Source: Escherichia phage vB_EcoM_G17. From it: a stretch of 64,000 nucleotides of DNA. The first letter of the stretch is position 1. Every line of letters begins with the position of its first letter. A model generated the notes under the pieces. That model saw only the letters and a program-made list of their open reading frames with translations, was not told the DNA's origin and searched no databases. Location of the stretch: the sequence record MK327931.1. One strand, 5' to 3'. Positions 4,834 to 34,380 of this stretch are shown here, piece after piece. Position numbers and translations under genes: made by a program.

Positions 4834-4864
4834 TGCATGTTCTCCTTGAGTTAATGAAACTATC

Positions 4865-6149: not shown

Positions 6150-6244
6150 GGTATACATCCTATTAGTTGAGATAGTACTACAAGTTAGAGTCTATTATAA
6201 AGTACTATCTGGGCAATGTCAAATAGTACTTTAAATGGATTCTA

Positions 6245-6568: not shown

Positions 6569-6591
6569 TTTTATTTCTCTCTCTTTGTTAG

Positions 6592-6652: not shown

Positions 6653-6655
6653 TAC

Positions 6656-6838: not shown

Positions 6839-6926
6839 TTTTATTTCTCTCTCTTTGTTAGGAGGGGAACCGTTTCCCCTCACTTGATGTAAACTATTAT
6901 ACAGTACTAAGATACTTTATCAATAC

Positions 6927-18527: not shown

Positions 18528-18620
18528 TTTTTTAATCCTCTTATATAGTGGGGAACTATTCCCCACCTGATGTAAAACATTATACGCTTTTAAACATAGT
18601 TTGCAAGTACTTTATTAAAC

Positions 18621-19764: not shown

Positions 19765-19880
19765 TGATTTAGCCGTCTATACTTCCAGACGTGTAACCAT
19801 CTAGCCGTTTAGCCGTCCAAACGTCTAGCCATCCAGAAATCTAGCCGTCTAGATGGATAGCCATCTTTACTTCCAGACTT
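19765..19880. repeat. iteron cluster: six copies of TAGCC(G/A)T and two of CTTCCAGAC
   Basis: Read directly: tagccgtc at about 19770, 19802, 19809, 19825 (tagccatc), 19841, 19857; no ORF. Confidence 0.6.
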
Positions 19881-20868: not shown

Positions 20869-20891
20869 TTAACATATGCAACATATGTTAA
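20869..20891. promoter_or_regulatory. perfect palindrome TTAACATATG-caa-CATATGTTAA (candidate dimeric-protein binding site)
   Basis: 10 bp arms, perfect inverted repeat, in non-coding DNA downstream of the small-protein operon. Confidence 0.45.
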
Positions 20892-20933
20892 AGCCTGTAT
20901 AATGCTTCCACTACGGAGCTTCCCCTAGCTATA

Positions 20934-21125
20934 TTACTTCCTATATATAATCATTAAGATATAGTAGTACTGATTATACTGTACATTCTCTTTAATATTA
21001 TAAGGGTCTATAGCAATCTCGGTACATCTATTAAATGCATATCTATTAAATGCCAGTGGAATTATAGATCTAATCCATACTTGTTCATTTTCTTTTAGTT
21101 TACTTATATAGAAGTTTTTATACAT
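20934..21125 (-). CDS. MHKEYY-family small protein (member 1)
   Basis: 63 aa; N-terminus MYKNFY, C-terminus LMIIYRK. Confidence 0.6.
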   Translation of the reverse strand: MYKNFYISKLKENEQVWIRSIIPLAFNRYAFNRCTEIAIDPYNIKENVQYNQYYYILMIIYRK

Positions 21126-21140
21126 AGTATTCTCTATTAA

Positions 21141-21323
21141 TTAATATGATAGTACTAGTGTTAGTACTGAGCACAATTGTTCTTTGTAGTTCTTAGGGTA
21201 TATAGAATCTTTTATGCACTCATTGAAGTGCCATAGGTATAATCTTGGGTCGCATTCTTTATATATTCTTACGGGGACGAATGTTAGTTTTCTTATATAG
21301 AATTCTTTATGTTCTTTATTCAT
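21141..21323 (-). CDS. MHKEYY-family small protein (member 2)
   Basis: 60 aa; MNKEHKEFY...FNECI. Confidence 0.6.
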   Translation of the reverse strand: MNKEHKEFYIRKLTFVPVRIYKECDPRLYLWHFNECIKDSIYPKNYKEQLCSVLTLVLSY

Positions 21324-21328
21324 ATTAG

Positions 21329-21514
21329 TTAGTGTCTGTATATAAGTAATAGTAAGAATACGTACTGCACATCTTCATCTTTAGTATTGAGTACTGTACG
21401 TATTGCGTCATGGAACAAGAATATAGTACTTGGGTCATGAAAATTTAAAGGGGTTCTGGGTACGGCATGTTTGTAGTTCCCTTTAACAAATTGTGTGTAG
21501 TATTCTCTATGCAT
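21329..21514 (-). CDS. MHKEYY-family small protein (member 3)
   Basis: 61 aa; MHREYY...LLLLIYRH. Confidence 0.6.
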   Translation of the reverse strand: MHREYYTQFVKGNYKHAVPRTPLNFHDPSTIFLFHDAIRTVLNTKDEDVQYVFLLLLIYRH

Positions 21515-21515
21515 A

Positions 21516-21701
21516 TTAGTACCTATATATTAGGGCGAGAATGTAGTACAATTCATATGGAATGTAATTTGGGGTGATCGCACACTGTGTATGGTAAATG
21601 AATTGTTCGGTATTTTTCTTATCCTTGATATCTATTGGGATTAGTGGTATAAGCATTTGGGAGTTTAGATCCAGATGGCTTAAGTAGAATTCTTTATGCA
21701 T
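21516..21701 (-). CDS. MHKEYY-family small protein (member 4)
   Basis: 61 aa; MHKEFY...ILALIYRY. Confidence 0.6.
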   Translation of the reverse strand: MHKEFYLSHLDLNSQMLIPLIPIDIKDKKNTEQFIYHTQCAITPNYIPYELYYILALIYRY

Positions 21702-21710
21702 ATTGTTCTC

Positions 21711-21899
21711 TTAGAATACGAAAGCTAGGTACAGGGTATGATACAGTACTCGATGGTAGCTGTCAAAATCTAGTATACATGCTTTAGTGCACATAGTAAA
21801 ATACACTTTATCATTTTGTGCATTGATACCGCGAGGTTTATCTAATAGATTAGTTCTGAGGTACATTGGGAAATATTTTGTGTAGTATTCTTTATGCAT
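21711..21899 (-). CDS. MHKEYY-family small protein (member 5)
   Basis: Track ORF 21711..21944 trimmed to internal MHKEYY start. Confidence 0.55.
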   Translation of the reverse strand: MHKEYYTKYFPMYLRTNLLDKPRGINAQNDKVYFTMCTKACILDFDSYHRVLYHTLYLAFVF

Positions 21900-21900
21900 G

Positions 21901-22083
21901 TTAGTACCTGAATATAAGTAGGATAGTGTTATATAGCTGGTCATAACTACTACTATTTTCTATACTTCGTTCTATGCAGTTATTGAATCCCAGTACTGCC
22001 AAATCGTTATCCAGAGGGACTTTATATCTGGCGTAGTGTACAAAAATGCTGGGGAGAAATTGTGTGTAGTATTCTTTGTGCAT
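21901..22083 (-). CDS. MHKEYY-family small protein (member 6)
   Basis: 60 aa; MHKEYYTQF...FNNCI...LLIFRY. Confidence 0.6.
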   Translation of the reverse strand: MHKEYYTQFLPSIFVHYARYKVPLDNDLAVLGFNNCIERSIENSSSYDQLYNTILLIFRY

Positions 22084-22084
22084 A

Positions 22085-22276
22085 TTAGTACCTATATATT
22101 AGTAAAAGGATGTGATACAGTACTCGATTATAGTCTTCAATATATATCGAGGATTTAGTGCACTGAATGAAGTAGTCTTTTTCGTAGTTTTTTTCTATAC
22201 CCAATGGTTCTGTTGGTACAAGGTGTTGGAGATACATTGGGAGTTTCTCTATGTAGTATTCTTTGTGGTTATTCAT
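22085..22276 (-). CDS. MHKEYY-family small protein (member 7)
   Basis: 63 aa; MNNHKEYY...LLLIYRY. Confidence 0.6.
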   Translation of the reverse strand: MNNHKEYYIEKLPMYLQHLVPTEPLGIEKNYEKDYFIQCTKSSIYIEDYNRVLYHILLLIYRY

Positions 22277-22277
22277 A

Positions 22278-22460
22278 TTAGTACCTGAATGTTAGCATTA
22301 CTACGTAGTACAGCATATATGGATTATCATCGTATATGAGCGTGTACTTAGTACATTGTTGGAACATTATCTTTGCGTGATCTTTTATTCCTATTGGTTC
22401 TGTTGGTATATGGTGCTGGAGATGCATAGGGATTTTATCCCTGTAGTATTCTTTGTGCAT
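22278..22460 (-). CDS. MHKEYY-family small protein (member 8)
   Basis: 60 aa; MHKEYYRDK...FQQCTK...MLTFRY. Confidence 0.6.
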   Translation of the reverse strand: MHKEYYRDKIPMHLQHHIPTEPIGIKDHAKIMFQQCTKYTLIYDDNPYMLYYVVMLTFRY

Positions 22461-22470
22461 GTTGTTCTCT

Positions 22471-22653
22471 TTAGTACTTATATATTAGGAGTAAAATGTT
22501 ATAGTACTGGTTCATTGCGTCATCATTTTCTATAGCACGTTTTACGCTATTCATGTAGTTAGATCGAGCGGCACGAGTTATGAGAAGAACTTTGTATGCA
22601 GCAAAGTATTTTTGCTGCACGGGTAGTTTAGAGATATAGTATTCTTTATACAT
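22471..22653 (-). CDS. MHKEYY-family small protein (member 9)
   Basis: Track ORF 22471..22716 trimmed to MYKEYYISKLP; start overlaps stop of the 223 aa gene (ATGTATAA). Confidence 0.55.
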   Translation of the reverse strand: MYKEYYISKLPVQQKYFAAYKVLLITRAARSNYMNSVKRAIENDDAMNQYYNILLLIYKY

Positions 22654-23317
22654 AGTTTGTAATATACGTAATGAGGTGATGCATTTTCTTATTAGTACTG
22701 ATAATTTCCTGTACATGTTTTGTCAGATTGTACGCGTTTTTATAGAGTACTGGATTATCGATTACAGTACTGTACATGAATAGTTCTTCTTCCTGTAGTT
22801 CTTTGTGTTCTAGTTCTTTGAGGAAATCTACAATTGATTTAGTTTCTTCTGAACGTTGTGCTTGCCAGAAGTGCATATTCTCGTGTACTTTTTCTGCATC
22901 AGTAGAGTATATGCCACCCATTTGGAATTGTGCTGTATTGACATCGTGGGAGGTGTTACAATTCCCGAAGAAGTATGTATTCCCGAAGTATAGCATTAAA
23001 GTGCACGGGGTATTATCCAACTGCATATTGATGATGAAGGATGCGTTCTTTAGTACCTTTGTGCTCGTATTAGTACTCAATACTTTTAAATCAGTATTAT
23101 AGATATTCATATAATGAACAGCTATATTATTTTTCTTCATGTACAATTCAAGGTTCTTTGATACGTTAACTCCATTTGTACTGGATTTTTCCTTTTTATT
23201 TCGTTTCTTTAGTACATTCGGGTGATACGTATATGCAGATGTAACTGATTCTGCCTGAATACTATTGAGGTACTTAAAGTGCTTAAGGTATTGTTTGCTG
23301 TGTGCATTAAGTTTCAT
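22646..23317 (-). CDS. hypothetical protein (223 aa) embedded in the small-protein operon
   Basis: Track lists it as +, but the stop (rc tta at 22646-22648) and ATG (rc cat at 23315-23317) are on the minus strand; AAGGAAA SD upstream. Confidence 0.6.
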   Translation of the reverse strand: MKLNAHSKQYLKHFKYLNSIQAESVTSAYTYHPNVLKKRNKKEKSSTNGVNVSKNLELYMKKNNIAVHYMNIYNTDLKVLSTNTSTKVLKNASFIINMQLDNTPCTLMLYFGNTYFFGNCNTSHDVNTAQFQMGGIYSTDAEKVHENMHFWQAQRSEETKSIVDFLKELEHKELQEEELFMYSTVIDNPVLYKNAYNLTKHVQEIISTNKKMHHLITYITNYV

Positions 23318-23327
23318 TTGGTTTCCT

Positions 23328-23507
23328 TTATATAGATGCCAGGGCGAGGATTTCCCTGTAGGGATTATCTTGTGTTAGTACAGCATAAATGCAGCTATTG
23401 AGATTAATATTTTTAGTACTTTTTGTTCCTAGTTTGTAGTACTTCACGAAGGTGTCGTACATGAAACGGTCTTTTATGGTTATACGTTCTCTATAGAATT
23501 GTTGCAT
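23328..23507 (-). CDS. MHKEYY-family small protein (member 10, 59 aa)
   Basis: Hand-translated (MQQFYRERITIKDRF...ILALASI), below track cutoff. Confidence 0.4.
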   Translation of the reverse strand: MQQFYRERITIKDRFMYDTFVKYYKLGTKSTKNINLNSCIYAVLTQDNPYREILALASI

Positions 23508-23515
23508 AGTATTCC

Positions 23516-23698
23516 TTAAATAGCGATTAGTTTCATTACTTCTCTGTATGTGTACTTTTCGTTTTGTGCATCTCTTGTGACGACATATAGGAAGGTGTGT
23601 TTATCTTTTTTGTTCCCGCAATTGTAGAAAATATTGAACTTATTGAAGTTGAATCTTTCGGCGTGTTGTAGTTTAGTTAAATAGAATTCTATGTTCAT
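23516..23698 (-). CDS. MHKEYY-family small protein (member 11)
   Basis: 60 aa; MNIEFYLTKL...MKLIAI. Confidence 0.55.
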   Translation of the reverse strand: MNIEFYLTKLQHAERFNFNKFNIFYNCGNKKDKHTFLYVVTRDAQNEKYTYREVMKLIAI

Positions 23699-23706
23699 TT
23701 TCTTCC

Positions 23707-23892
23707 TTACATTTCAATAAGTTTAAGTACTGCTCGGTACGTGTACTTAGTTGTTAGTGCTTCTTTAATAGAAATGCAGAAGTAATGTTGTTTGTCTCTT
23801 ATACTGCCGCGTTTGTAGTACCACACATGGGAGTTGTGACTGTACTTGTCTCTGTCGGATAGTTGTTGGTAGTAGTAGCTTATATGATTCAT
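23707..23892 (-). CDS. MHKEYY-family small protein (member 12)
   Basis: 61 aa; MNHISYYYQQL...LKLIEM. Confidence 0.55.
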   Translation of the reverse strand: MNHISYYYQQLSDRDKYSHNSHVWYYKRGSIRDKQHYFCISIKEALTTKYTYRAVLKLIEM

Positions 23893-24101
23893 TATAATGT
23901 AATTAGCCTTACTATATTAAAGTACTCGGTCCCTGGTGTACCTTGTAGTATATTACGCACGACATTTTTTTGGTGCTGGATGATTGCTGAAGGTGCGGTT
24001 CTTTTTAGTTTTTTTAAAGTACTGAATTCTTGTTTAAGTATGAACTGTACATCTTTAGGGAGAATATCTATGTAGTACTGATGAATGTTTGTAGTTTTCA
24101 T
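23892..24101 (-). CDS. MHKEYY-family small protein (member 13)
   Basis: 69 aa; MKTTNIHQYYIDILP...VRLITL. Confidence 0.55.
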   Translation of the reverse strand: MKTTNIHQYYIDILPKDVQFILKQEFSTLKKLKRTAPSAIIQHQKNVVRNILQGTPGTEYFNIVRLITL

Positions 24102-24111
24102 ATAGCACCTT

Positions 24112-24306
24112 TTAGAACTTAAAGATGAGGTTCAGGATAGAGCGGTACTTAGTTTCAGGGAACTGATGTTCTATTGCATAACGTGTCGCCATCCTGAAAT
24201 CGTAATTGTAATATAGATTATCCTTTCTCATAGGTGGTGCTAAAGAGAATGATAGCTGGTCTTGCTTGTGTAGTTTACTACCATAGAAATCTTTATGATT
24301 ATTCAT
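24112..24306 (-). CDS. MHKEYY-family small protein (member 14)
   Basis: 64 aa; MNNHKDFY...LNLIFKF; start overlaps upstream stop (ATGAATAA). Confidence 0.55.
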   Translation of the reverse strand: MNNHKDFYGSKLHKQDQLSFSLAPPMRKDNLYYNYDFRMATRYAIEHQFPETKYRSILNLIFKF

Positions 24307-24508
24307 AGAAGTAGATTAGTCCTATTAAACCTGAGTACATAATATTTTTGTTATTGCATTCGATTGCTTCTAGAGTACTACGTATACAATTATTAAAGCA
24401 ATCTCTACCGAAGTGAGTATTGGTACTTACAGGTGATACACTCCTTAGAAACAATTGTTCTTCGTTGCTAAGGTATTTGGTGTAGAATTCTTTATGTTCA
24501 GTATTCAT
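24299..24508 (-). CDS. MHKEYY-family small protein (member 15)
   Basis: 69 aa; MNTEHKEFY...FNNCIRS...LIGLIYFYE. Confidence 0.55.
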   Translation of the reverse strand: MNTEHKEFYTKYLSNEEQLFLRSVSPVSTNTHFGRDCFNNCIRSTLEAIECNNKNIMYSGLIGLIYFYE

Positions 24509-24509
24509 A

Positions 24510-24713
24510 TTAGTACTCGATTAAAAGGGCAAGGATATAATAGTATTGCATACTTTCTGCCCCTTGTAAAGCATTTCTTATGATATTACTCCTGTACGAG
24601 TTCAGGAGTTTAGGACAACGTTTGTAGTGTATAAAAGTATTTTGTGTATACAGTAGGCTTTCTCGTAGACCTTTTGTTGGTAGTGCATCGATGTAGTACT
24701 GTTCAATGTTCAT
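24510..24713 (-). CDS. MHKEYY-family small protein (member 16)
   Basis: 67 aa; MNIEQYYIDALP...LALLIEY. Confidence 0.55.
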   Translation of the reverse strand: MNIEQYYIDALPTKGLRESLLYTQNTFIHYKRCPKLLNSYRSNIIRNALQGAESMQYYYILALLIEY

Positions 24714-24937
24714 ATAGATAGCAGTACTAAGATTTTTGATAATTGTTTATTGCTATCCCCGCAGATGTTGCTGTGTAAAATACTCACAATGAGGGTATCA
24801 ATTGCATTGTTCATCATAAGGGTGCATCTTGGACTATTATAATTTTTTAGCTCAATTAGCCACGAACTATCCGAGAGAAATTCCCCGTACTCTAGTTCAT
24901 TTAGAGTATTGAGGTAGTACTTAAGAGTATTTGTCAT
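24710..24937 (-). CDS. MHKEYY-family small protein (member 17, first gene of operon)
   Basis: 75 aa; MTNTLKYYLNTL; AAGGAG SD; promoter TTGACA-N17-TACTAT upstream on minus strand. Confidence 0.55.
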   Translation of the reverse strand: MTNTLKYYLNTLNELEYGEFLSDSSWLIELKNYNSPRCTLMMNNAIDTLIVSILHSNICGDSNKQLSKILVLLSI

Positions 24938-25039
24938 GTGTAGTTCTCCTTATATTCCTTCTATAGTACACCAGTACTGAAAGGATGTCAAGGGTTTTCT
25001 TTATGGGGTAAATATGATATAATGAATAAGGAGGGATTT
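24938..25039. promoter_or_regulatory. divergent promoter region between the small-protein operon (minus) and the MLPF/RCC1-like array (plus)
   Basis: Minus: TTGACA-N17-TACTAT then AAGGAG; plus: TATAAT at about 25016 then AAGGAGGG and ATG at 25040. Confidence 0.55.
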
Positions 25040-26176
25040 ATGTTACCTTTTGTTAGAATGTTAAATTATGGGAACGTAGCACCAGAAAAACTAAAAGTTC
25101 GTGATATTGTTGCAGGTGCTAATTCATTATTACTAATAACCGAGGATAATGAATTATGGGTGCGTGGTAATAATTCGTATGGCAAATTAGGTATAGGAAC
25201 TGATACTATAGTGAATGTAACCGAGTGGACTAAAGTTAGAGATGATGTTAAGTTTGCTTGTGCTAGTAATTTAGTATGCGTTGTATTAACTGTAGATAAT
25301 AAAATTTTCTACTGTGGTGATGAATGGTTTGAATCTGGTGGTTCGACAAGTTCTAAAGTTGTTACATGGAAAGATGTTACGACACAATTTAGTGCAGTGA
25401 ATCTAAGCACAGTACGTGAAATGAAAATGACTTCTTATTGTGTAGGATTACTTACAAATGATAATAGATTATATGCTAAAGGATATGATAATAACCAATC
25501 ATTTGGTGGTTCAACAAGCAAAGTTAATGCTGTATTAGTTGCGTCAAATGTTTCAAAATTCTACACTTCTCTATCTGGTACTATATATTCTAGTACTACT
25601 GGTGGTTACTACCGCTGTGGTATAAGCAATACTGGAGCATTGGGTACTAGCACAAATTTAACTTCTTATAATTTGTACTCTGCTCCCGAATTTGCATCCG
25701 AATGTGCAGTTGGTATGTCAACATTAAACTCTGGTATATTATATTATGATACTAATGGTAGCACTAGATATGTTATAGCAGGTCAAAATAGATATTATCA
25801 ACTAGGTAATTCTTCTTCAAATACCACAAACGTATATTCGTATACAGAATTAACCGGATATAGAGGCAGGTTTAGGGATTTGTGGAGTGATATGAATAAC
25901 TCTGTTCTTTCTTTTGCTATAAGCACAGATGGCAATACTTTATATTATGCTGGTACTAACACTACACTATCTTCTGGTGACCCTGGTGTTGAATATTCAT
26001 CTACATTTAAAGAAGTACCACACGGGTTTAATGATATAACAAAGGCGGCATCGTTAGCCTATCTATCTATAGTGCAAGATTCAACGGGATGGTATTATTC
26101 TGGAAATGCAACTACGTTATATGGTTTGCCATCGAGTGATGAATTTATACCATTACCATTACCAACAATAATTTAA
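25040..26176 (+). CDS. MLPF-family RCC1-like repeat protein R1
   Basis: N-terminus MLPFVRMLNYGNVAP; repeated G-x-N-x-(Y/G)-(G/Q)-LG-x-G motifs (NNSYGKLGIGT, QNRYYQLGNSS); start trimmed from 25022 to the ATG with AAGGAGGG SD. Confidence 0.7.
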   Translation: MLPFVRMLNYGNVAPEKLKVRDIVAGANSLLLITEDNELWVRGNNSYGKLGIGTDTIVNVTEWTKVRDDVKFACASNLVCVVLTVDNKIFYCGDEWFESGGSTSSKVVTWKDVTTQFSAVNLSTVREMKMTSYCVGLLTNDNRLYAKGYDNNQSFGGSTSKVNAVLVASNVSKFYTSLSGTIYSSTTGGYYRCGISNTGALGTSTNLTSYNLYSAPEFASECAVGMSTLNSGILYYDTNGSTRYVIAGQNRYYQLGNSSSNTTNVYSYTELTGYRGRFRDLWSDMNNSVLSFAISTDGNTLYYAGTNTTLSSGDPGVEYSSTFKEVPHGFNDITKAASLAYLSIVQDSTGWYYSGNATTLYGLPSSDEFIPLPLPTII

Positions 26177-26182
26177 ATACAG

Positions 26183-26211
26183 GCCAGTACTTGATACTGG
26201 CTTTTCTTTTT
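26183..26211 (+). terminator. Rho-independent terminator after R1 (GCCAGTA-N5-TACTGGC plus T-run)
   Basis: Inverted repeat followed by ttttctttttt; next promoter -10 TATAAT at 26226-26231. Confidence 0.6.
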
Positions 26212-26247
26212 TGTATTAAATATAGTATAATGAATAAGGAGGGAAAT

Positions 26248-27450
26248 ATGTTACCTTTTGGAAGAATGGTTAAGTACGCAAATATTGCACCAGGTCCAGA
26301 ACCTGTAGAGTTCTCAGATGTTTTACAACAACATTATACAAACTGTATGTATCTCCATAACCCAACTAATACTTTATATGGTTATGGTAGTAATAACTTT
26401 TACCAATTTGGTCTTGGGAATTCAGCAGCAGTTTCGTCATTTACAGTACTTGCAAGGAACTGTGCAGCCTTTTGGCTTGGTGTTCAAGGTTCATTGATGA
26501 TTGATTTGGATAATAAAATATACTACACTGGGTCGGTTGGTGCATTTTCTGATTATGGAGATGCAACACCTGTTAATGGTTATTTGACAACATGGACTGA
26601 TGTTACTGTTGCATTTAATAAAATAGGTGTTATGGCTAATATGATCAAGAGTGTATATATAGGTGAAAGTACTAGAATATTATTAACCGATGGTAGAGTA
26701 ATTGCGTGTGGAAGAAATACTAATGGTGAATGTGGCTCTGGTAATAAAAATTCCATCCCTACACTCACAGTTATGACTAATATGGGTGAAGTTACACATA
26801 TGGCATGTTCATTACAAGGAACGCACTATATCAAATCAAATAAAGATGCATGGTTTTGTGGTAAGGATAACTTTGGTGAAAGTGGATGTGGTGGTAGTTT
26901 TGTTGTATATTTGAACAAATTCGTGATTAGTAATGTAGAACATATTAGTACTACATACGATGTTACTTGGTGGTTTACTACTGGTGGGCCTGTATATTAT
27001 AGCGGGGCTAACAGTTCTGGACAAGCTGGTAATGGTACGACTACATCGGTAAATCAGCTAACACCAATTAGGAACACATCGGTCACGGTTGATGTAAGTA
27101 AGTACAGTACTTTTATTTGTCCAAGTAATATGGGAAATGCATCAATTGGTGCACCTATGGCACAATACGCACCATATGTTAGAAGTAGTGGTGCTAACTC
27201 ATATGGTCAAGAAGGTAATGGAACTAATACATTAGTTAGAACTTGGAATATTTTTAATCTTAGTGCAATAAGTGGTGGTTATGACAATGTTCTTATGGCA
27301 TCTAAAGATTGGAGCAGAACCATAATAATTACTAAAGATTATAAATTATATGCATGTGGTGGCTGGAATGGTAGTGGTGGTAGATTACCTGATGGCACTT
27401 ATAGTATTACTACACTAACATTAATGCCAACGCAGTTATGGCAACAATAG
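26248..27450 (+). CDS. MLPF-family RCC1-like repeat protein R2
   Basis: MLPFGRMVKYANIAP; motifs SNNFYQFGLGN, RNTNGECGSGN, ANSYGQEGNGT; start trimmed from 26191. Confidence 0.7.
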   Translation: MLPFGRMVKYANIAPGPEPVEFSDVLQQHYTNCMYLHNPTNTLYGYGSNNFYQFGLGNSAAVSSFTVLARNCAAFWLGVQGSLMIDLDNKIYYTGSVGAFSDYGDATPVNGYLTTWTDVTVAFNKIGVMANMIKSVYIGESTRILLTDGRVIACGRNTNGECGSGNKNSIPTLTVMTNMGEVTHMACSLQGTHYIKSNKDAWFCGKDNFGESGCGGSFVVYLNKFVISNVEHISTTYDVTWWFTTGGPVYYSGANSSGQAGNGTTTSVNQLTPIRNTSVTVDVSKYSTFICPSNMGNASIGAPMAQYAPYVRSSGANSYGQEGNGTNTLVRTWNIFNLSAISGGYDNVLMASKDWSRTIIITKDYKLYACGGWNGSGGRLPDGTYSITTLTLMPTQLWQQ

Positions 27451-27458
27451 GAGGGAAT

Positions 27459-28568
27459 ATGTTACCTTTTGGAAGAATGATTAGGTATGGAAATATTGTC
27501 CCTGGTCCTAAAAAAATAATTAAAGTTGGTGCTTCTACCCAAGGCCAATTCTTATTGACTGATTCACATGATTTATATTACATAGGTAGAAATCAAGGTG
27601 GTGAATCTGGAAATGGTAATACCAACACGGTGTCTTCGTGGACATTAGTAAGTGCAGATGTTTCTAATTTTTTCGTGGGTGATCGTACACTTGTTATTAT
27701 TAAAAATGATAATACGATATGGACATCAGGTCAAACGTACTGGTTCTCATCTTCTACAACTACTTCTTACAGTACTGTATTAGTTGAAAGAACTAATTGG
27801 TTTACCAATGCTATACCAGTAAGTGAAATTGCTAATATTGTATGCACAAATGGTTTAATATTTGTACTTAGCACTAATTCAGTACTCTATGGTGCAGGAG
27901 ATAATGGATATCGTGGTTCTTTGGGTATTGGTTCATCATCAATTTACACATTAACTCAATGTGCTACGAACGTTCGTAAAGTAATGACCAATGCGAATGA
28001 TAGTATGTATCTTACATTAGATAATAAGCTATATAGTTCTGGATGGAATAGTAGTGGGCAGCATGGTACGGGGAACCAAACACAAATTAACACTTGGGGA
28101 TTGCGTAGTTCTGGTGTAATCGATGCAGCCATTGGTGGTAATGCATTAAATTACTATAATGGTACATCATATTTCGTATGTGGTCAAACTCCAAACTTTC
28201 TTAGTTCAGGTACGACTACATTCCGTGCAGTTCCTTTAAGTACTTTGCCTAATAGTTCTCCATTGTTTATGACGAATTCACCTGCCTTAAATACTGCTAC
28301 ACAAATGGTAATTACTAGTACATATCAGAAGGGTGTTGGGGCGAACCGTGGTTTGGGATTAAACAATTCTCAAACTGGTGCTATATATAGTGCTACCAAT
28401 TTACAATTACCCGTTGAAGTTAGTGAGATTAGGGATGTTCTTTTTAGTGATGGTTTGACATCGATATTAACCAAAAATGGAGACGTGTATAGTACTGGAT
28501 CGTATTACGCCATTCCAGGTGCAATCGAGGATGTTGCAGTCTTTACTAAAATTGATTTACCAAAATAA
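27459..28568 (+). CDS. MLPF-family RCC1-like repeat protein R3
   Basis: MLPFGRMIRYGNIVP; motifs RNQGGESGNGN, DNGYRGSLGIG, WNSSGQHGTGN; no terminator between R2 and R3 (co-transcribed). Confidence 0.7.
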   Translation: MLPFGRMIRYGNIVPGPKKIIKVGASTQGQFLLTDSHDLYYIGRNQGGESGNGNTNTVSSWTLVSADVSNFFVGDRTLVIIKNDNTIWTSGQTYWFSSSTTTSYSTVLVERTNWFTNAIPVSEIANIVCTNGLIFVLSTNSVLYGAGDNGYRGSLGIGSSSIYTLTQCATNVRKVMTNANDSMYLTLDNKLYSSGWNSSGQHGTGNQTQINTWGLRSSGVIDAAIGGNALNYYNGTSYFVCGQTPNFLSSGTTTFRAVPLSTLPNSSPLFMTNSPALNTATQMVITSTYQKGVGANRGLGLNNSQTGAIYSATNLQLPVEVSEIRDVLFSDGLTSILTKNGDVYSTGSYYAIPGAIEDVAVFTKIDLPK

Positions 28569-28574
28569 CATAAT

Positions 28575-28604
28575 GCCAGTACTCTGTACTGGCTTTCTTA
28601 TTTG
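28575..28604 (+). terminator. Rho-independent terminator after R3
   Basis: GCCAGTAC-tct-GTACTGGC then T-rich tract. Confidence 0.6.
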
Positions 28605-28638
28605 TATTAAATATAGTATAATGAATAAAGGAGGGAAT

Positions 28639-29808
28639 ATGTTACCTTTTGGAAGAATGATTAAGTACGGAAATATTGCACCTGCTAAACCAAATATTAA
28701 AAAAATACTTGCTAACAACTATAATGTTGCTGTTTTAACAAACAGTGGTGATTTATATGTGCGTGGTGAGAATGCAAATGGTCTTTTGGGTTTAGGTCAC
28801 AAAAATACTGTTACTACATGGACTTATAGTACTTCTGGTGTTCAAGATTTTTGGATGGGAGCCACGACGATAGTTCTTAAGAAAAGCAATGATGAAATAT
28901 GGTACAGTGGAAGTTCAACAACTGTTGGTATGAAAGGGGCAGCAGTATCAATATGGACTTCTGCTATGCCAACATTCGATACATTAACATTACCAATATT
29001 AGATATAGCAGTTAGTTATCAGACTACAAGTGTGTTACTGTCAGACCAAACAATATGGAGTACTGGAGTGGGGTCAGATGGTCAGTTGGGTGATGGGACA
29101 ACAACTAACAATATTGCTGGTAAATTCGTCAAAAGTACTGTTCCGGCCGCAGCAAATCAATTACCTGTTAAATTGTTTGCAAGTAATTTAATGCACGGTT
29201 ATGTTACAAACCAAGGATGGCTATTTTATACAGGAAGAGTAAATGCAGTTACAAGTTCAGGAAGTAAGTTATATACTATATATTATGGTGCTCCTACCAG
29301 CTTAAGAAATACAATTAATATCAAGTACTACACGGAGAATGGTACTTCAATGGCAATGGCAATTGGTACTGATCCAAATGGAAAAACCATCATCGCAAAT
29401 GGCGGTTCGAGAATATTTGGTGCACAAGCAGATGGGACAAATGGTTCTCTCAATGATTATAGAGCATTTGAGGTTCAAACTGCTTCACTAATGCCACCCG
29501 GTGATGTAGTAAGCATTGCTAACAATACTTCATATTATAACCAAGTTATTGCTACAACAGATGGTATATATTGTTGCGGCTACAATCAATCTTCAGAAGC
29601 TGGTATGTTAGGTATTGGTACATCTACCAATGCATTGGTATATACCAAAGCAATCGTGCCTGATGGGTTTGATTATAGTAAGTCGCAGATGGCAGGTGGG
29701 TATAACCGAACTTATATAACTGATGGTAATTTTGTATATAGCACAGGGACAAATGTCACATATGGTGGCGTTAGTAGCTTAGAATTTGTATTAGATTCAC
29801 CAGTTTAA
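28639..29808 (+). CDS. MLPF-family RCC1-like repeat protein R4
   Basis: MLPFGRMIKYGNIAP; motifs ENANGLLGLGH, VGSDGQLGDGT, YNQSSEAGMLGIGT; start trimmed from 28477. Confidence 0.7.
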   Translation: MLPFGRMIKYGNIAPAKPNIKKILANNYNVAVLTNSGDLYVRGENANGLLGLGHKNTVTTWTYSTSGVQDFWMGATTIVLKKSNDEIWYSGSSTTVGMKGAAVSIWTSAMPTFDTLTLPILDIAVSYQTTSVLLSDQTIWSTGVGSDGQLGDGTTTNNIAGKFVKSTVPAAANQLPVKLFASNLMHGYVTNQGWLFYTGRVNAVTSSGSKLYTIYYGAPTSLRNTINIKYYTENGTSMAMAIGTDPNGKTIIANGGSRIFGAQADGTNGSLNDYRAFEVQTASLMPPGDVVSIANNTSYYNQVIATTDGIYCCGYNQSSEAGMLGIGTSTNALVYTKAIVPDGFDYSKSQMAGGYNRTYITDGNFVYSTGTNVTYGGVSSLEFVLDSPV

Positions 29809-29814
29809 ATATAT

Positions 29815-29845
29815 GCCAGTACTCTGTACTGGCATTCTTATTTGT
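29815..29845 (+). terminator. Rho-independent terminator after R4
   Basis: GCCAGTAC-tct-GTACTGGC then attcttatttg. Confidence 0.55.
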
Positions 29846-29879
29846 ATTAAATATAGTATAATGAATAAAGGAGGGAAAT

Positions 29880-31028
29880 ATGTTACCTTTTGCAAGAATG
29901 ATGAATTATGGGAATATTGCCCCTGGTAAGGATAGGCGTTTTAAAATATATTCAAGTGATTCTATGTATCTTCATGATACTTATACTAATAAGTTGTATG
30001 CATCTTCTGCGACGAATTGGGGTACTGGAACAGGTGTAGCATCGAGTAAATTTATTCTTTGTGCAGAGAATGTTAAACGAGTTCTATTGGAAGATAACAG
30101 TAGTAGTTGTCAATTGTATGAAGAGAAAGGTACTGGAAAAGTTTTTATCACTGGTAACACGAAGGCATTCACTGGTGTAACTGATACAAAAACTTTGTGG
30201 ACGGACTGTACTACGTGGATAACATCAGGTGGTATTAATGTTTCTGATATAAAATACATGAGTAGTTTTAATGATATGAAGGTGAATTTGATAACAAACG
30301 ATGGTACGTTGTATTGTTGTGGAGTTAACAATAACTCGAACCTATCATCATTTGGTGATGGTACAAACATTAATTCTTTTAACACATTCAAAAGGGTAGA
30401 TACTATAACTTCGGTTAAAAAGGCAGTTGGTAACATATACCTAAAAGAAGATAATACTTTATGGGGTTGTGGTTTTAACTATTACTATCAGTTAGGTACA
30501 GGTAATCAAACTTCTATTACTGGGGTGACGATGATTGCTTCGGATGTTATAGATTTTGATGTAAGTTATCAAAGTACATTTTTTATTAAATCGGATAATA
30601 ATTTGTACGCTTGTGGTAAACAGTTCGGTGCACAATACGGGAACGAATTTGGCACAGGTGGTACTTCTTCATCTACCGATATACAATACAAAACTCCGAC
30701 ATTATTGAGTTCAGGAGTTTATACTCTATATACTTGTGTTAGTAACATGGCATCACATATAGCTAAAGGTGATGAAGTTCTATACGCATCTGGGTCGAAT
30801 GGATTTGGTCAATTAGGTGTTGGTAATAATATTAATCAGTACTCATATACTCCTTCGTATACTTCGTTTAATAGTTCGTGTAATTTGGTACGCACTCCAT
30901 CTGGTTCACTTATACTTACGGACACTGAGCAATTATATTATTGTGGGTATGCTATGGTAGTAATGGGGGGAATTGCTGGACAAAACATTCTTAGTTATAC
31001 AGAAGTTGATATGTCATTTATACAATGA
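29880..31028 (+). CDS. MLPF-family RCC1-like repeat protein R5
   Basis: MLPFARMMNYGNIAP; motifs FNYYYQLGTGN, SNGFGQLGVGN. Confidence 0.7.
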   Translation: MLPFARMMNYGNIAPGKDRRFKIYSSDSMYLHDTYTNKLYASSATNWGTGTGVASSKFILCAENVKRVLLEDNSSSCQLYEEKGTGKVFITGNTKAFTGVTDTKTLWTDCTTWITSGGINVSDIKYMSSFNDMKVNLITNDGTLYCCGVNNNSNLSSFGDGTNINSFNTFKRVDTITSVKKAVGNIYLKEDNTLWGCGFNYYYQLGTGNQTSITGVTMIASDVIDFDVSYQSTFFIKSDNNLYACGKQFGAQYGNEFGTGGTSSSTDIQYKTPTLLSSGVYTLYTCVSNMASHIAKGDEVLYASGSNGFGQLGVGNNINQYSYTPSYTSFNSSCNLVRTPSGSLILTDTEQLYYCGYAMVVMGGIAGQNILSYTEVDMSFIQ

Positions 31029-31034
31029 TTTAAT

Positions 31035-31063
31035 GCCAGTACACTGTACTGGCTTTCTTATTT
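31035..31063 (+). terminator. Rho-independent terminator after R5
   Basis: GCCAGTAC-act-GTACTGGC then T-rich tract. Confidence 0.6.
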
Positions 31064-31099
31064 GTATTAAATATAGTATAATGAATAAAGGAGGAATTT

Positions 31100-32242
31100 A
31101 TGTTACCTTTTGCAAGAATGATGAATTATGGGAATATTGCACCAGAACCAAAACCTCTATTTAAAAATAGATTACAAGCAAATTATAATACTCGTTTTTA
31201 TTTGCATGTTAATGGTGACTTGTACTGGTATGGTTCATCTTCATTTGGACAAGGTGGTAATGGTTCATTACAATCATCCACCGTATGGACCCGTGTGAAT
31301 AATAATATTGAACGTTACTGGGGTGGTGTTCTTGGTTCCATTGCCATTAAGAATGATGGAACTATTTGGTTCACAGGTGCTAGTATAGTAATGCCACAAA
31401 TCGGAACAAATACAAATGGGGTTTGGATTGATGTAACCCAGTACTTCACTGATTTTGGTGTCAGTGCTGATGATATTGATGGTATTGCTGTTGGGCAGAA
31501 TTTGCGTGTATTTTTAAAAAATGGAAAATGGTTCTACTGTGGTACTGGCGAAGCTGGTGTATTTGGTAACGCGTCAACAGCTAATGTCACATCGTTCAGA
31601 TACAGCACTATAGAAAATGTTAAAAGTTATGGCTGTTCTTTGCTCAGTACTGGGTTAGTACTTGATGATGGCTCCTATTGGTATGCAGGAAATACTGTTG
31701 CTCCTGGTAGTACAAAAACATCAAATATATTAAGTTTTACAAAAGACAATACGATCACCAATGCTATACAAGCTGTAAATACATACCGTACTTCATATAT
31801 ATTTCTTAATGATGGTTCAGTGAAGGTTGCTTCACCAAATGCATATGGTCAAGCTGGTGTAGGTACAGTATCAGCAGTACCAATGAGTACATTAATTCCC
31901 AATTTATCATTCCAAGGTGAAATAGAGTTGGTGGGTGGTTTATCCAACAACGAAGGGAATGGATGTGTTGTTAAAAATAATAATAAGTTATATACTTGTG
32001 GTCGAAATACCTATGGTCTATGTGGTGTTAATCAAACATCCGAAAATATACTAACTTTCACCGAAATGGTTCTTGATGCATTAGAAGGAAGACGAATTTC
32101 AGGCTTCGTAAATGATAATTTCTATTCAATGATAATTGATGAAAATAACAATTTGTATATGTGTGGTTTGGCTGAACTTGGAAATGTTCCAGTCAATAGA
32201 GTTCCAACAAGGGTTCCTGATTCACTTCTACCGTGGAAATAA
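31100..32242 (+). CDS. MLPF-family RCC1-like repeat protein R6
   Basis: MLPFARMMNYGNIAP; motifs SSSFGQGGNGS, PNAYGQAGVGT, RNTYGLCGVN. Confidence 0.7.
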   Translation: MLPFARMMNYGNIAPEPKPLFKNRLQANYNTRFYLHVNGDLYWYGSSSFGQGGNGSLQSSTVWTRVNNNIERYWGGVLGSIAIKNDGTIWFTGASIVMPQIGTNTNGVWIDVTQYFTDFGVSADDIDGIAVGQNLRVFLKNGKWFYCGTGEAGVFGNASTANVTSFRYSTIENVKSYGCSLLSTGLVLDDGSYWYAGNTVAPGSTKTSNILSFTKDNTITNAIQAVNTYRTSYIFLNDGSVKVASPNAYGQAGVGTVSAVPMSTLIPNLSFQGEIELVGGLSNNEGNGCVVKNNNKLYTCGRNTYGLCGVNQTSENILTFTEMVLDALEGRRISGFVNDNFYSMIIDENNNLYMCGLAELGNVPVNRVPTRVPDSLLPWK

Positions 32243-32248
32243 TATAAT

Positions 32249-32278
32249 GCCAGTATCAAGTACTGGCATTTCTTTTTG
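32249..32278 (+). terminator. Rho-independent terminator after R6
   Basis: GCCAGTA-tcaag-TACTGGC then T-rich tract. Confidence 0.6.
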
Positions 32279-32312
32279 ATTAAATATAGTATAACAAATA
32301 AAGGAGGGAATT

Positions 32313-33500
32313 ATGTTACCTTTTGCAAGAATGATGAATTATGGGAATATTGCCCCAGTACCACTTCAAATTAAGAAAATAATCCCAACTGATTTAGATG
32401 TTGTGGTTCTGTATACGGATGGTCAACTATATGCACGTGGGAATAATAGTTTTGGGAAATTCGGTAGAGGAAACAACACTGCATTAAAATCATGGACATT
32501 AATTAGAGAAAACGTTAACGATTGCTGGCTTACACAAGGAACTTTATTAGTAAAAGACAATGACTCAAATTATTATTACTGTGGATATGGTAGTCATATT
32601 GGTTTATCAACTAGTACTACTACGTTTTTAAGTTATAACCAATATATTCAAAATTTGTACACACAAAGTTCAAGTACTTCAATTAAACAGATGTATGGAG
32701 GTACTACGTGGTTTACTTTCTTAATGGACAATAATACAATATGGAGTACAGGGTGGAACAGTGCTAGACAATTCGCCGATGGAACGGGAACTACTTATGA
32801 AATAACCGATGGTTCATTTGTAAAAGCGGTCACACCTAATGTTGATATTGCACAAATACAGTCAACAAATAACTGTGTATTGTTGTTTGATAAACAAAAT
32901 AATTTATATATTGGTGGTGTTACATCCGGTATAAGTTCCGCGACTACATGGACTTCATATAATCAATATACTTTATATCAACCAAATACAACATACACAA
33001 AAACGTTACAATACACAGGATGCTCAACTGGTGCAGTAAGTGCTTTAGTTGAAAATCCAAATACAGGAGCACGTCAGTTCCTTGTCGGTGGGTTAGCTAA
33101 TAATGGGGCATGGGGAAATAACACTACATCTAGCTCTGTTAATGGAGTTTTAGGAAATAACAGTACGACGTTACCACCCGGTACTTTGTATTCAATTCAT
33201 ACTGGATACCCACCACAATCTAGTATACTAATTACGAGTACTGGTGTATATGCAACTGGTTTAAATGCCAGTAGTTATGCTGGTTCATTGGGTATTGGTA
33301 CTAGTGCAACTGTTGGTAAGTTTACTGCATGTCCAATGCCTACACAAATAACATATTCTATGTATGATAAAATAAAAATATATAGAGGTTCATATCGTAC
33401 ATTTCTAACTGATATGAAAAATATATATTCAACCGGAACTTATGATGATGGTGGTCCTAGTACAACTAGATATGTACTAGATACACCCCGACAATTATAA
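32313..33500 (+). CDS. MLPF-family RCC1-like repeat protein R7
   Basis: MLPFARMMNYGNIAP; motifs NNSFGKFGRGN, NASSYAGSLGIGT. Confidence 0.7.
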   Translation: MLPFARMMNYGNIAPVPLQIKKIIPTDLDVVVLYTDGQLYARGNNSFGKFGRGNNTALKSWTLIRENVNDCWLTQGTLLVKDNDSNYYYCGYGSHIGLSTSTTTFLSYNQYIQNLYTQSSSTSIKQMYGGTTWFTFLMDNNTIWSTGWNSARQFADGTGTTYEITDGSFVKAVTPNVDIAQIQSTNNCVLLFDKQNNLYIGGVTSGISSATTWTSYNQYTLYQPNTTYTKTLQYTGCSTGAVSALVENPNTGARQFLVGGLANNGAWGNNTTSSSVNGVLGNNSTTLPPGTLYSIHTGYPPQSSILITSTGVYATGLNASSYAGSLGIGTSATVGKFTACPMPTQITYSMYDKIKIYRGSYRTFLTDMKNIYSTGTYDDGGPSTTRYVLDTPRQL

Positions 33501-33507
33501 TATAATA

Positions 33508-33537
33508 GCCAGTACTCAGTACTGGCTTTTCTTTTTG
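33508..33537 (+). terminator. Rho-independent terminator after R7
   Basis: GCCAGTAC-tca-GTACTGGC then ttttctttttg. Confidence 0.6.
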
Positions 33538-33572
33538 TATTAAATATATTATAATGAATAAAGGAGGGAATT

Positions 33573-34310
33573 ATGTTACCTTTTGGAAGAATGATTAAGT
33601 ACGGGAATGAAATTGAATATAAGCCACATGGTGAACAATTAATCACGACAATAGGAACAACACAATTTACAGTTCCTGCTGGCGTTACCGAAATATCAGT
33701 ATGTGTTATTTCGCCGGGTGGTCAACGTGGTGCTGGCGGCGGCTTATCGTGGCGTAATAATATTCCGGTTACTAGTGGTGAGTACTTAAGTGTTTCTCTT
33801 ACGCATACCAACACTACTACACCAGTTGAAAACGGTTTATATCGTGGAACTGAAAAACTATGTGTTAGCTTCACTGGTGCATATACGGTTGGTGGACTAG
33901 GTGGAAAAGCTGCTAACGCTATTAATGATGGTGGTGGTAATGGTGGCAATACTGGTGTAAGTGGTGGTGCAGTCATTGGTGGTGGTGCTGGTGGCTACAC
34001 AGGTAAAGGTGGTAACGGAGATGCAATCACTGGTGAAAATGGTGCTGGCGGCGGCGGGGGCGGTGGTACATTCTATAATACCTCGTTCATTGGTACGGGT
34101 GGTGGTACTGGTATCATTGTTCAAGGTGCTAATGGTATTGGTGGTAGCTACGGTGGTTCATATAATGGTGGTGCTGGTAGTGGTGGTGCTGGTAAGATGT
34201 ATGGTGGTGGTGGTAGTATATGGGATAATTCTTCTTATACGGCTGCTGGTGGTGGTGCTGTGCGAATAATATGGGGAAATGGGAGATATTATCCTAACAA
34301 TTCAGTATAA
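33573..34310 (+). CDS. MLPF-family glycine-rich protein R8 (245 aa)
   Basis: Same promoter/RBS cassette and N-terminus MLPFGRMIKYGN, but body is Gly-rich (GGAGGYTGKGGNGDAITGENGAGGGGGGG...). Confidence 0.65.
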   Translation: MLPFGRMIKYGNEIEYKPHGEQLITTIGTTQFTVPAGVTEISVCVISPGGQRGAGGGLSWRNNIPVTSGEYLSVSLTHTNTTTPVENGLYRGTEKLCVSFTGAYTVGGLGGKAANAINDGGGNGGNTGVSGGAVIGGGAGGYTGKGGNGDAITGENGAGGGGGGGTFYNTSFIGTGGGTGIIVQGANGIGGSYGGSYNGGAGSGGAGKMYGGGGSIWDNSSYTAAGGGAVRIIWGNGRYYPNNSV

Positions 34311-34317
34311 AATATAG

Positions 34318-34347
34318 GCCAGTACAGAGTACTGGCTTTTCTTTTTG
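34318..34347 (+). terminator. Rho-independent terminator after R8
   Basis: GCCAGTAC-aga-GTACTGGC then ttttctttttg. Confidence 0.6.
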
Positions 34348-34380
34348 ATTAAATATAGTATAATGAATAAAGGAGGAAAT

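What the first reader, a model, noticed from the sequence alone, without database searches (positions are those of the whole stretch)
22646..23317. 223 aa gene embedded in the small-protein operon; strand in ORF track appears wrong
The 223 aa ORF (MKLNAHSKQYLKHFKYL...) is listed as plus, but its ATG (rc cat at 23315-23317) and stop (rc tta at 22646-22648) are on the minus strand, co-oriented with the operon. Its stop overlaps the start of the next family member (ATGTATAA). It is the only larger protein in the operon and could be the enzyme or effector that the small proteins accompany; I see no recognisable domain by eye.
Basis: seen in the sequence. Interest (0 to 1): 0.6.

Follow-up and report, generated by a model that had tools for sequence, protein, structure and literature searches.

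The report
Orphan early gene in jumbo phage
The 223-residue gene is real and on the minus strand, but it is an already-annotated protein of unknown function from the E. coli jumbo phage Sharanji: it belongs to a small phage-only family that sits beside a block of virion-protein genes, predates the small genes around it, and shows no sign of being an enzyme.

Summary
Window 22646-23317 (minus) encodes MKLNAHSKQY..., 223 aa, and its stop overlaps the next small gene's start (ATGTATAA). The window is Escherichia phage Sharanji (Asteriusvirus). The gene is Sharanji_gp103, equivalent to 121Q gp256 and phAPEC6 gp544c, all annotated 'hypothetical protein'.

No Pfam, PADLOC or PDB sequence match exists; only PHROG 29152 (unknown function) matches.

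New here:
- gp103 has a remote paralog at 39535-40197 (minus) on the other flank of the RCC1-like gene array (hhalign 95.7%, E 9e-9).
- The family has 2-4 copies at these array junctions in Sharanji-like phages, phage EJP2, a metagenomic contig and Erwinia phage Hallingskeid.
- The last three lack the 60-aa small-protein family, so those genes are a later insertion around gp103.
- In those three a conserved sigma70-like promoter (TTGACA..CAGTACTG..TAyWAT) lies directly upstream of the family gene. In Sharanji the same promoter heads the 18-gene operon.
- Neither paralog's ortholog is in the phAPEC6 virion proteome, whereas the RCC1-like proteins are.

Best reading: an early, non-structural, protein-binding accessory factor. 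Function remains unproven and interest is modest.

The parts
22646..23317 (-). Sharanji_gp103 coding sequence (223 aa plus stop); family member 1
   Evidence: Translation; GenBank annotation; PHROG 29152 at E 1.8e-155; 22 homolog clusters of at least 65% identity; dN/dS 0.43-0.54.
23323..23328 (-). Ribosome-binding site AAGGAA, 5 nt upstream of the ATG, overlapping the stop codon of the upstream small gene
   Evidence: Read directly from the sequence.
22646..22653 (-). ATGTATAA stop/start overlap with the next small gene (translational coupling)
   Evidence: Sequence. The same 8-nt overlap appears in the E9.1 and WPEC5 annotations.
20934..24937 (-). 18-gene operon: 8 small genes, then gp103, then 9 small genes (small proteins 59-75 aa, one paralogous family)
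   Evidence: ORFs; alignment A1; HMM hits at E 1e-13 to 1e-24 confined to this run. No strong minus-strand terminator-like site inside the run.
24963..24991 (-). Sigma70-like promoter TTGACA-tcctttCAGTACTGgtg-TACTAT heading the operon, 25 nt upstream of the first ATG
   Evidence: Promoter scan; sequence. An orthologous promoter is conserved in L005, EJP2 and Hallingskeid.
39535..40197 (-). Family member 2: a 220-aa remote paralog of gp103 (phAPEC6 gp011c, 121Q gp233) at the far end of the RCC1-like array
   Evidence: hhalign A3 vs A4: 95.7%, E 8.9e-9, columns 3-197; controls; 34 phage records carry it.
25040..39077 (+). Array of RCC1-like (beta-propeller) paralogs flanked by the two family members; virion-associated in phAPEC6
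   Evidence: ORFs; PHROG 4219; phAPEC6 virion proteome (PMC7247149).
25007..25021 (+). GGTAAATATGATATAAT, a conserved element upstream of the first RCC1-like gene and a candidate late-type promoter (inference)
   Evidence: GGTAAATA occurs once in the window; its complement is invariant in four lineages; it is also present in fENko-Kae01.

Best explanation
gp103 is a real, translated, non-structural phage protein that is expressed early, and it most likely acts by binding another protein rather than by catalysis.

Shown:
- It is one of two paralogs in Sharanji (22646-23317 and 39535-40197). They belong to a family confined to a sub-group of Rak2-like jumbo phages, with 2-4 copies located at the two junctions between the plus-strand RCC1-like gene array and the surrounding minus-strand genes.
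- In three other lineages a family member is the first gene behind a conserved sigma70-like promoter (TTGACA..CAGTACTG..TAyWAT). In Sharanji-like phages eight small genes have been interposed, so gp103 is now gene 9 of an 18-gene operon driven by that same promoter.

Inferred:
- Host RNA polymerase transcribes the operon early.
- The 26-kDa product stays in the cytoplasm.
- It uses a strongly constrained N-terminal helix (residues 5-18), a basic disordered tether (about residues 16-48; residues 1-62 have pI 10), a central alpha+beta sandwich with weak RWD/UBC-like resemblance, and a C-terminal helical region carrying the invariant acidic-aromatic motif (S/T)EEE(L/M)F(Q/M)Y(S/T) to bind a host or phage partner.
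- The paralogs have diversified for different partners, as in host take-over or anti-defence accessory proteins.
For: Real gene:
- Intact ORF with an RBS.
- 0 of 500 shuffles reach its length.
- Conserved in more than 20 phages with overall omega 0.45-0.5, and omega 0.07-0.16 for residues 1-33.

Family and paralogy:
- hhalign 95.7%, E 8.9e-9, end to end; 75% and E 2.5e-5 without the bridging sequences; shuffled and reversed controls at most 0.3%.
- EJP2 has three tandem copies plus one at the other end of the array.
- L005 has three tandem copies.
- Hallingskeid has two (E 1.6e-26 and 9.2e-24).
- The window holds exactly two.

Early expression:
- The promoter is conserved in four lineages and is promoter-proximal to the family gene in three.
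- It belongs to a class of about 12 near-consensus sigma70-like promoters in the window.
- In the related phage CBB, RpoD-like promoters in front of short hypothetical genes are interpreted as the early region (PMC5259590).

Non-structural:
- phAPEC6 gp544c and gp011c are absent from the 62-protein virion proteome, which does contain eight RCC1-like proteins (PMC7247149).

Fold:
- The AlphaFold model has pLDDT 76.5 and pTM 0.69, with residues 49-223 confident.

Non-enzymatic:
- No polar residue is conserved family-wide, and there is no Pfam hit.
Against: - No direct expression, localisation or interaction data exist for this gene.
- Early timing rests on promoter sequence and on analogy with CBB.
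- Absence from one virion proteome is negative evidence, because low-copy virion proteins can be missed.
- The conserved position next to the RCC1-like array could point to a function tied to those virion proteins rather than to the host.
- The Pro-Cys dipeptide (P104-C105) is conserved in about two thirds of members, so a sub-family-specific chemistry cannot be excluded.
Confidence: 0.38

Rival explanations
1. gp103-family proteins are dedicated, non-virion assembly factors (chaperones or attachment adaptors) for the neighbouring RCC1-like virion proteins, comparable to tail-fibre assembly proteins that are encoded next to their fibres and are absent from the particle.
For: - Family members sit at one or both ends of the RCC1-like array in four lineages, although the region is otherwise plastic.
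- RCC1-like proteins are virion-associated while gp544c and gp011c are not.
- In the same study the predicted tail-fibre assembly protein gp220 was likewise not detected in virions.
- Paralog number is above 1, as expected if partners have diversified.
Against: - The family genes are always on the opposite strand from the array and sit behind a sigma70-like (early-type) promoter. The array has its own conserved GGTAAATA element, so co-expression is not indicated.
- Munch, fENko-Kae01 and GAP32 have RCC1-like genes or arrays with no family member nearby.
- There are 2-4 family copies against 11-13 RCC1-like copies.
- All carriers are related phages, so the shared position may be a single inherited state rather than independent evidence.
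Confidence: 0.22
2. It is a nucleic-acid-binding regulator. The basic N-terminal region binds DNA or RNA at the divergent promoter region or the adjacent AGTACT-rich non-coding stretch and controls the early/late switch of the flanking units.
For: - Residues 1-62 have pI 10, with 13 K/R against 3 D/E, and paralogs are also basic there.
- Ancestrally the gene is directly divergent from the array across a conserved intergenic region of about 110 nt with two promoter-like elements.
- The palindrome CAGTACTG lies inside the promoter spacer, as an operator would.
Against: - No helix-turn-helix, ribbon-helix-helix, zinc-finger or other DNA-binding domain is detected by Pfam or fold search.
- The basic segment is predicted disordered and evolves fast.
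- CAGTACTG is part of a genome-wide promoter class (64 copies in the window), not specific to this locus.
- The second paralog is not next to such a promoter.
Confidence: 0.12
3. One reading: gp103 is an enzyme or effector that works with or on the roughly 60-aa small proteins, for example a modifying enzyme with an array of precursor peptides, or a toxin with small partners.
For: - Co-transcription in one operon and an 8-nt stop/start overlap with the next small gene, retained in E9.1 and WPEC5.
- gp103 stays embedded in the array in all Sharanji-like phages examined.
Against: - The family exists without small-family genes in EJP2 and L005, and none are annotated in Hallingskeid.
- No catalytic residues are conserved, and there are no enzyme-family hits.
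- Small-gene number and identity turn over rapidly around gp103.
- hhalign finds no relationship between gp103 and the small family.
Confidence: 0.06

Closest known systems
PHROG 29152 (phage protein family of unknown function); orthologs 121Q gp256, phAPEC6 gp544c, PBECO4 and other Asteriusvirus 'hypothetical proteins'
   Same: Full-length match at E 1.8e-155, with the same position and strand in every Sharanji-like genome examined.
   Different: Nothing differs: this is the same protein family. It carries no functional annotation. The link to the second subfamily (39535-40197), to the EJP2, L005 and Hallingskeid members and to the RCC1-array junctions was not found in the papers I searched.
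RWD / UBC-like (E2-fold) alpha+beta sandwich domains (kinetochore Knl1, Kre28, Spc25, Mcm21 and Csm1; GCN2, RNF25 and RWDD3 RWD domains; bacterial E2 BilB)
   Different: The scores are in the twilight zone and Foldseek finds nothing significant. There is no sequence-profile match to Pfam RWD or UQ_con. gp103 has extra strands (131-151), a basic N-terminal tether and a four-helix C-terminal extension. This is a resemblance of a predicted model, not membership.
Early 'host take-over' gene regions of Rak2-like jumbo phages (e.g. CBB_390-546), transcribed from RpoD-like promoters
   Same: A cluster of short hypothetical genes on one strand behind sigma70-like promoters with A-rich upstream elements, and a non-virion product.
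   Different: Timing has not been measured for any Asteriusvirus. The CAGTACTG spacer element of the promoters seen here is not mentioned in the passages I read.
Phage tail-fibre assembly or chaperone proteins encoded next to their fibre genes
   Same: Non-virion, encoded adjacent to virion surface-protein genes, and diversified in parallel.
   Different: Opposite strand and a different promoter type; no homology to any known chaperone family; not present beside all RCC1-like arrays.

Membership tests
PHROG 29152 / Asteriusvirus gp256-like proteins | Full-length profile match | tested here: met
   E 1.8e-155, residues 1-223 against profile positions 1-223; 65-88% identity to 21 full-length clusters.
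'Array-junction' family of about 220 aa, defined here (gp103 subfamily + 39535-40197 subfamily + EJP02_494/495/496/511 + three L005 copies + Hallingskeid CDS0070/0071) | Colinear profile-profile similarity over the whole length | tested here: met
   hhalign A3 vs A4: 95.7%, E 8.9e-9, 172 columns. Without the EJP2 bridge: 75%, E 2.5e-5, C-terminal 48 columns only. Shuffled and reversed controls: at most 0.3%.
'Array-junction' family of about 220 aa | N-terminal MK(L)xxxxKxYxxxFK motif and C-terminal (S/T)(E/D)E(E/K)(L/M/I)F(Q/M)(Y/L)(S/T) motif about 45 residues from the end | tested here: met
   Alignment A5: F180 invariant, Y10 and K15 at least 90% conserved. Both motifs are present in the Hallingskeid members.
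'Array-junction' family of about 220 aa | Location at an end of an RCC1-like gene array, on the opposite strand | tested here: met
   Sharanji, both ends; EJP2, both ends; L005; Hallingskeid. Not every RCC1-like array has one: Munch, fENko-Kae01 and GAP32 do not.
Small-protein family of the operon (alignment A1; PHROG 11711 for part of it) | Profile similarity to the 60-aa paralogs (MHKEYY... ...LLLIYRY) | tested here: not met
   hhalign probability 0.1-0.4% for gp103 alone, for A2, A3 or A4 against A1. The C-terminal tail resemblance I noticed by eye is not supported.
RWD domain (Pfam PF05773) / UBC E2 fold (PF00179) | Sequence-profile match | tested here: not met
   No Pfam family at E up to 10 for gp103. 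Neither family is among the hits for any of the 21 members at E up to 1.
RWD domain / UBC E2 fold | Alpha+beta sandwich fold (helix, four antiparallel strands, two or more helices) with a significant structural match | tested here: inconclusive
Catalytic E2 (UBC) enzymes | Conserved active-site cysteine after the fourth strand, with an HPN-type motif | tested here: not met
   C120 is invariant only among close orthologs and is replaced by A, Y or a gap in P0024, P0026 and P0027. There is no HPN motif and no family-wide Cys.
Known anti-phage defence or anti-defence proteins (PADLOC-DB) | Profile match | tested here: not met
   0 families at E up to 1.
Prefoldin (JGI's automatic name for homolog P0021) | Pfam prefoldin profile match | tested here: not met
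   The label appears. No prefoldin family is among the Pfam hits of any member. I treat the label as spurious.
Virion structural proteins of Asteriusvirus | Detection in purified particles by mass spectrometry | tested here: not met
   phAPEC6 gp544c and gp011c are not among the 62 virion proteins (Table 1 of PMC7247149). This is literature evidence from a 97-98% identical phage, not from Sharanji itself.

The most novel reading that the evidence does not exclude
The family is a non-catalytic E2/RWD-like decoy. Early in infection it would bind and block a host ubiquitin-like conjugation defence (Bil-type or CBASS Cap2-type E1-E2 machinery; such systems are known to attach ubiquitin-like proteins to phage tail proteins, which I state from my own knowledge and did not check in the paper library). 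That would protect the exposed RCC1-like virion fibres encoded next door, and it would explain both the E2-like model without an active-site cysteine and the persistent linkage to those genes.
Probability: 0.04. Interest if true: 0.75.

Novelty: new member of a known kind. Interest (0 to 1): 0.3.

Why it matters
About 80% of jumbo-phage genes have no assigned function, and this is one of them. The work turns an isolated 'hypothetical protein' into a defined family with recognisable motifs, a usable structure model, a conserved promoter and a conserved genomic address beside the RCC1-like virion-protein array. It also corrects the intuitive reading that the large gene is the 'enzyme' of the small-gene array: the small genes are the newcomers. 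If the family proves to be a host-targeting adaptor or an assembly factor for the unusual 'hairy' appendages of these phages, it would give a handle on either early take-over or fibre morphogenesis in non-nucleus-forming jumbo phages. As it stands, this is an ordinary orphan accessory gene, now better described.

Tried and rejected
1. The C-terminal tail of gp103 (…HHLITYITNYV) as a diverged copy of the small-protein family (…LLLIYKY). Rejected: hhalign probability at most 0.4%.
2. First AlphaFold run with close orthologs only (A2). pLDDT was 42.9, unusable. It was replaced by a run on the more diverse alignment A6, which gave pLDDT 76.5.
3. Pfam, PADLOC, NCBI-style names and PDB sequence searches, with the single sequence and with profiles. 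All empty.
4. An exhaustive HMM search of 1.84 billion representatives found only 8 proteins, all in the same lineage. The word-indexed search with the combined alignment added nothing new.
5. Rfam on 18500-25200 gave no hit.
6. Foldseek on AFDB50 was unavailable on the machine. Foldseek on PDB was not significant. BFVD gave one unnamed 199-aa match (A0A7L8G6Q1, E 3.3e-5) that I could not identify.
7. Single-sequence comparisons of the 39535-40197 ORF with gp103 relatives (BLASTP, HMMER) were not significant. Paralogy became significant only profile against profile.
8. Placing gp103 inside the 20,668-bp direct terminal repeat reported for Sharanji. The paper gives no coordinates, and the fENko-Kae01 boundary cannot be transferred because that phage lacks the operon. 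Left open.
9. Looking for family members beside the RCC1-like genes of Munch, fENko-Kae01 and GAP32. None found.

Full report
**Source and observation.** The window matches Escherichia phage Sharanji (OR545507.1, genus Asteriusvirus, 350 kb) at 100% identity over the 5 kb tested. Relatives 121Q, PBECO4, phAPEC6 and slurp01 are about 97% identical. The ATG is preceded by AAGGAA, and the stop overlaps the next small gene's ATG as ATGTATAA. None of 500 shuffles gives an ORF this long. GenBank already carries the gene on the minus strand as Sharanji_gp103, 121Q gp256 and phAPEC6 gp544c, all 'hypothetical protein'.

**The operon.** Window 20934-24937 (minus) holds 17 paralogous genes of 59-75 aa (alignment A1; HMM E 1e-13 to 1e-24, none elsewhere in the window). 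gp103 lies between the eighth and ninth of them. Copy number varies:
- 16 in 121Q
- 17 in Sharanji
- 18 in phAPEC6
- 20 in WPEC5
- 21 in E9.1
- 15 in TH47

gp103 is always embedded and always overlaps the next gene by 8 nt. The small gene just downstream is not orthologous between sub-lineages (dN 0.7-0.8).

**What gp103 is not.**
- No Pfam hit at E up to 10, no PADLOC hit and no PDB sequence relative, with either the single sequence or profiles.
- Only PHROG 29152, of unknown function.
- Not related to the small family (hhalign at most 0.4%).
- Homologs in 5.8 billion clustered proteins number 22, all at least 65% identical and all from contigs the size of these phages.
- An exhaustive profile search of 1.84 billion representatives added only four divergent full-length or partial relatives.

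**A family with an address.** One divergent relative (P0027) is 88% identical to EJP02_496 of phage EJP2. That gene is the last of three tandem genes of 206-225 aa abutting the far end of the RCC1-like array. The window has a 220-aa minus-strand ORF in the same place (39535-40197).
- Single-sequence comparisons were not significant.
- Profile against profile gives 95.7% probability and E 8.9e-9 over 172 colinear columns.
- Without the EJP2 bridging sequences the match is 75% and E 2.5e-5, limited to the C-terminal 48 columns.
- Shuffled and reversed controls give at most 0.3%.

EJP2 has a fourth copy (EJP02_511) at the other end of its array. A metagenomic contig (L005) has three tandem copies directly divergent from four RCC1-like genes. 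Erwinia phage Hallingskeid has two copies (E 1.6e-26 and 9.2e-24) in the same arrangement. The small-protein family gives no hit in the EJP2 or L005 loci, and no such array is annotated next to the Hallingskeid copies. Munch, fENko-Kae01 and GAP32 have RCC1-like genes but no family member nearby. The family therefore predates the small genes, and its linkage to the array is frequent but not universal.

**Regulation.** The intergenic region of about 110 nt between the array and the minus-strand unit is orthologous in the four lineages. On the minus-strand side it carries T(T/A)GACA-N6-9-CAGTACTG-N0-3-TA(C/T)(T/A)AT. This lies 30-44 nt upstream of the first family gene in L005, EJP2 and Hallingskeid, and 25 nt upstream of the first small gene in Sharanji. 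CAGTACTG is 24-fold over-represented in the window (64 copies with at most one mismatch to TCAGTACTGA, against 2.6 expected). In about 12 cases it forms the spacer of near-perfect TTGACA-N8-CAGTACTG-TATAAT promoters. In the related phage CBB, such RpoD-like promoters in front of short hypothetical genes are taken to mark the early region (PMC5259590). On the array side, GGTAAATA(TGATATAAT) is invariant across the four lineages, occurs once in the window, and is also present in fENko-Kae01. It resembles the T4-type late motif discussed for CBB. The inference is that gp103 is early and the array is late.

**Localisation.** In phAPEC6, eight RCC1-like proteins are in the 62-protein virion proteome. 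gp544c (gp103), gp011c (the paralog) and the small proteins are not (PMC7247149).

**Evolution.** Overall dN/dS is 0.43-0.54. Residues 1-33 are tightly constrained (0.07-0.16), the basic linker is fast-evolving, and the rest lies between 0.4 and 0.8; these are small-sample estimates. In the 'UNVERIFIED' record CMSTMSU the gene is fragmented.

**Structure.** With the diverse alignment A6 the AlphaFold model reaches pLDDT 76.5 and pTM 0.69. Its elements are:
- helix 5-18
- a disordered basic segment, residues 16-48 (residues 1-62 have pI 10)
- helix 54-62
- strands 66-72, 92-100, 103-110 and 113-118, plus a small extra sheet
- helices 157-169, 176-183, 189-206 and 212-222

**Conclusion.** gp103 is an ordinary but now better-defined orphan: an early, non-virion member of a family of about 220 aa tied to the RCC1-array junctions, most likely a protein-binding adaptor (confidence about 0.4).

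Noticed in passing
window, 64 sites; near-consensus copies at 1315, 3287, 3781, 11233, 11462, 15193, 15592, 17566, 20282, 48357, 63285; variant at 24972: The palindrome CAGTACTG (contains a ScaI site) is about 24-fold over-represented. In about 12 places it forms the spacer of a strongly conserved sigma70-like promoter, aaaaGTAyTTGACA-N8-CAGTACTG-TATAAT-...GGGGAGA. This is probably the early-promoter class of these phages; the palindrome could also be an operator.
   Followed up: partly
window 19040-20934: An ORF-poor stretch of 1.9 kb just downstream of the operon. It holds 13 CAGTACTG-type motifs, a 79-nt direct repeat (19324 and 19540), an array with 8-nt period (19768-19863, TCTAGCCG-like units) and a perfect TTGACA-16-TATAAT promoter at 20303-20276 (minus) that fires into non-coding DNA. 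The stretch is unannotated in Sharanji and 121Q, and equivalent ORF-poor stretches exist in L005, EJP2 and fENko-Kae01. No Rfam hit. It may be a non-coding RNA, a long leader or a terminal-repeat boundary region.
   Followed up: partly
window 20934-24937 versus OR545507.1 annotation: The Sharanji GenBank record annotates only 3 of the 17 small genes (gp102, gp104, gp105), whereas 121Q, E9.1 and WPEC5 annotate nearly all. Sharanji's count of 593 ORFs is therefore an underestimate in this region.
   Followed up: yes
window 25040-39077 (+); L013 7023-7655; L011 18578-19225: The 11-12 RCC1-like paralogs all begin with a conserved MLPFGRM(I/L)KYGNI motif. The same N-terminus heads non-RCC1 proteins next to the RCC1-like genes of GAP32 (GAP32_002) and Munch (CPT_Munch_534). 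This suggests a shared virion-attachment module with exchangeable distal domains, and hence that these 'DNA condensation proteins' may be the hairy surface fibres rather than DNA-packing proteins.
   Followed up: no
window 39083-39666 (+): After a terminator-like hairpin (GCCAGTGCCTTGTACTGGC followed by a T run, about 39085-39110) lies a decayed RCC1-like copy. It starts MLPFRRII and is broken by stops into fragments of 66 and 65 aa. Its 3' part overlaps the 3' end of the minus-strand paralog (39535-40197). In 121Q and PBECO4 an intact RCC1-like gene is annotated overlapping that paralog.
   Followed up: no
window 40976-43019 (-); L003 3431-5621; L012 18240-22763: A tandem array of paralogs of about 105-120 aa that look like multi-pass membrane proteins follows the second family member. 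This arrangement is conserved in EJP2, Hallingskeid, Munch and fENko-Kae01.
   Followed up: no
window 20000-25000: The plus-strand GC skew is positive (+0.06 to +0.19) across the small-gene operon although its genes are on the minus strand. Elsewhere, minus-strand gene blocks have negative skew. The operon's coding strand is unusually C-over-G and A-rich, in keeping with its Tyr/His/Asn/Ile/Lys-rich proteins.
   Followed up: no
L015 (fENko-Kae01) 1-6867; Sharanji paper PMC11895373: In fENko-Kae01 the annotated direct terminal repeat starts about 330 nt from the head of the RCC1-like array. Sharanji is reported to have a 20,668-bp terminal repeat, with no coordinates given. The gp103 operon may lie at or near a physical genome end.
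   Followed up: partly
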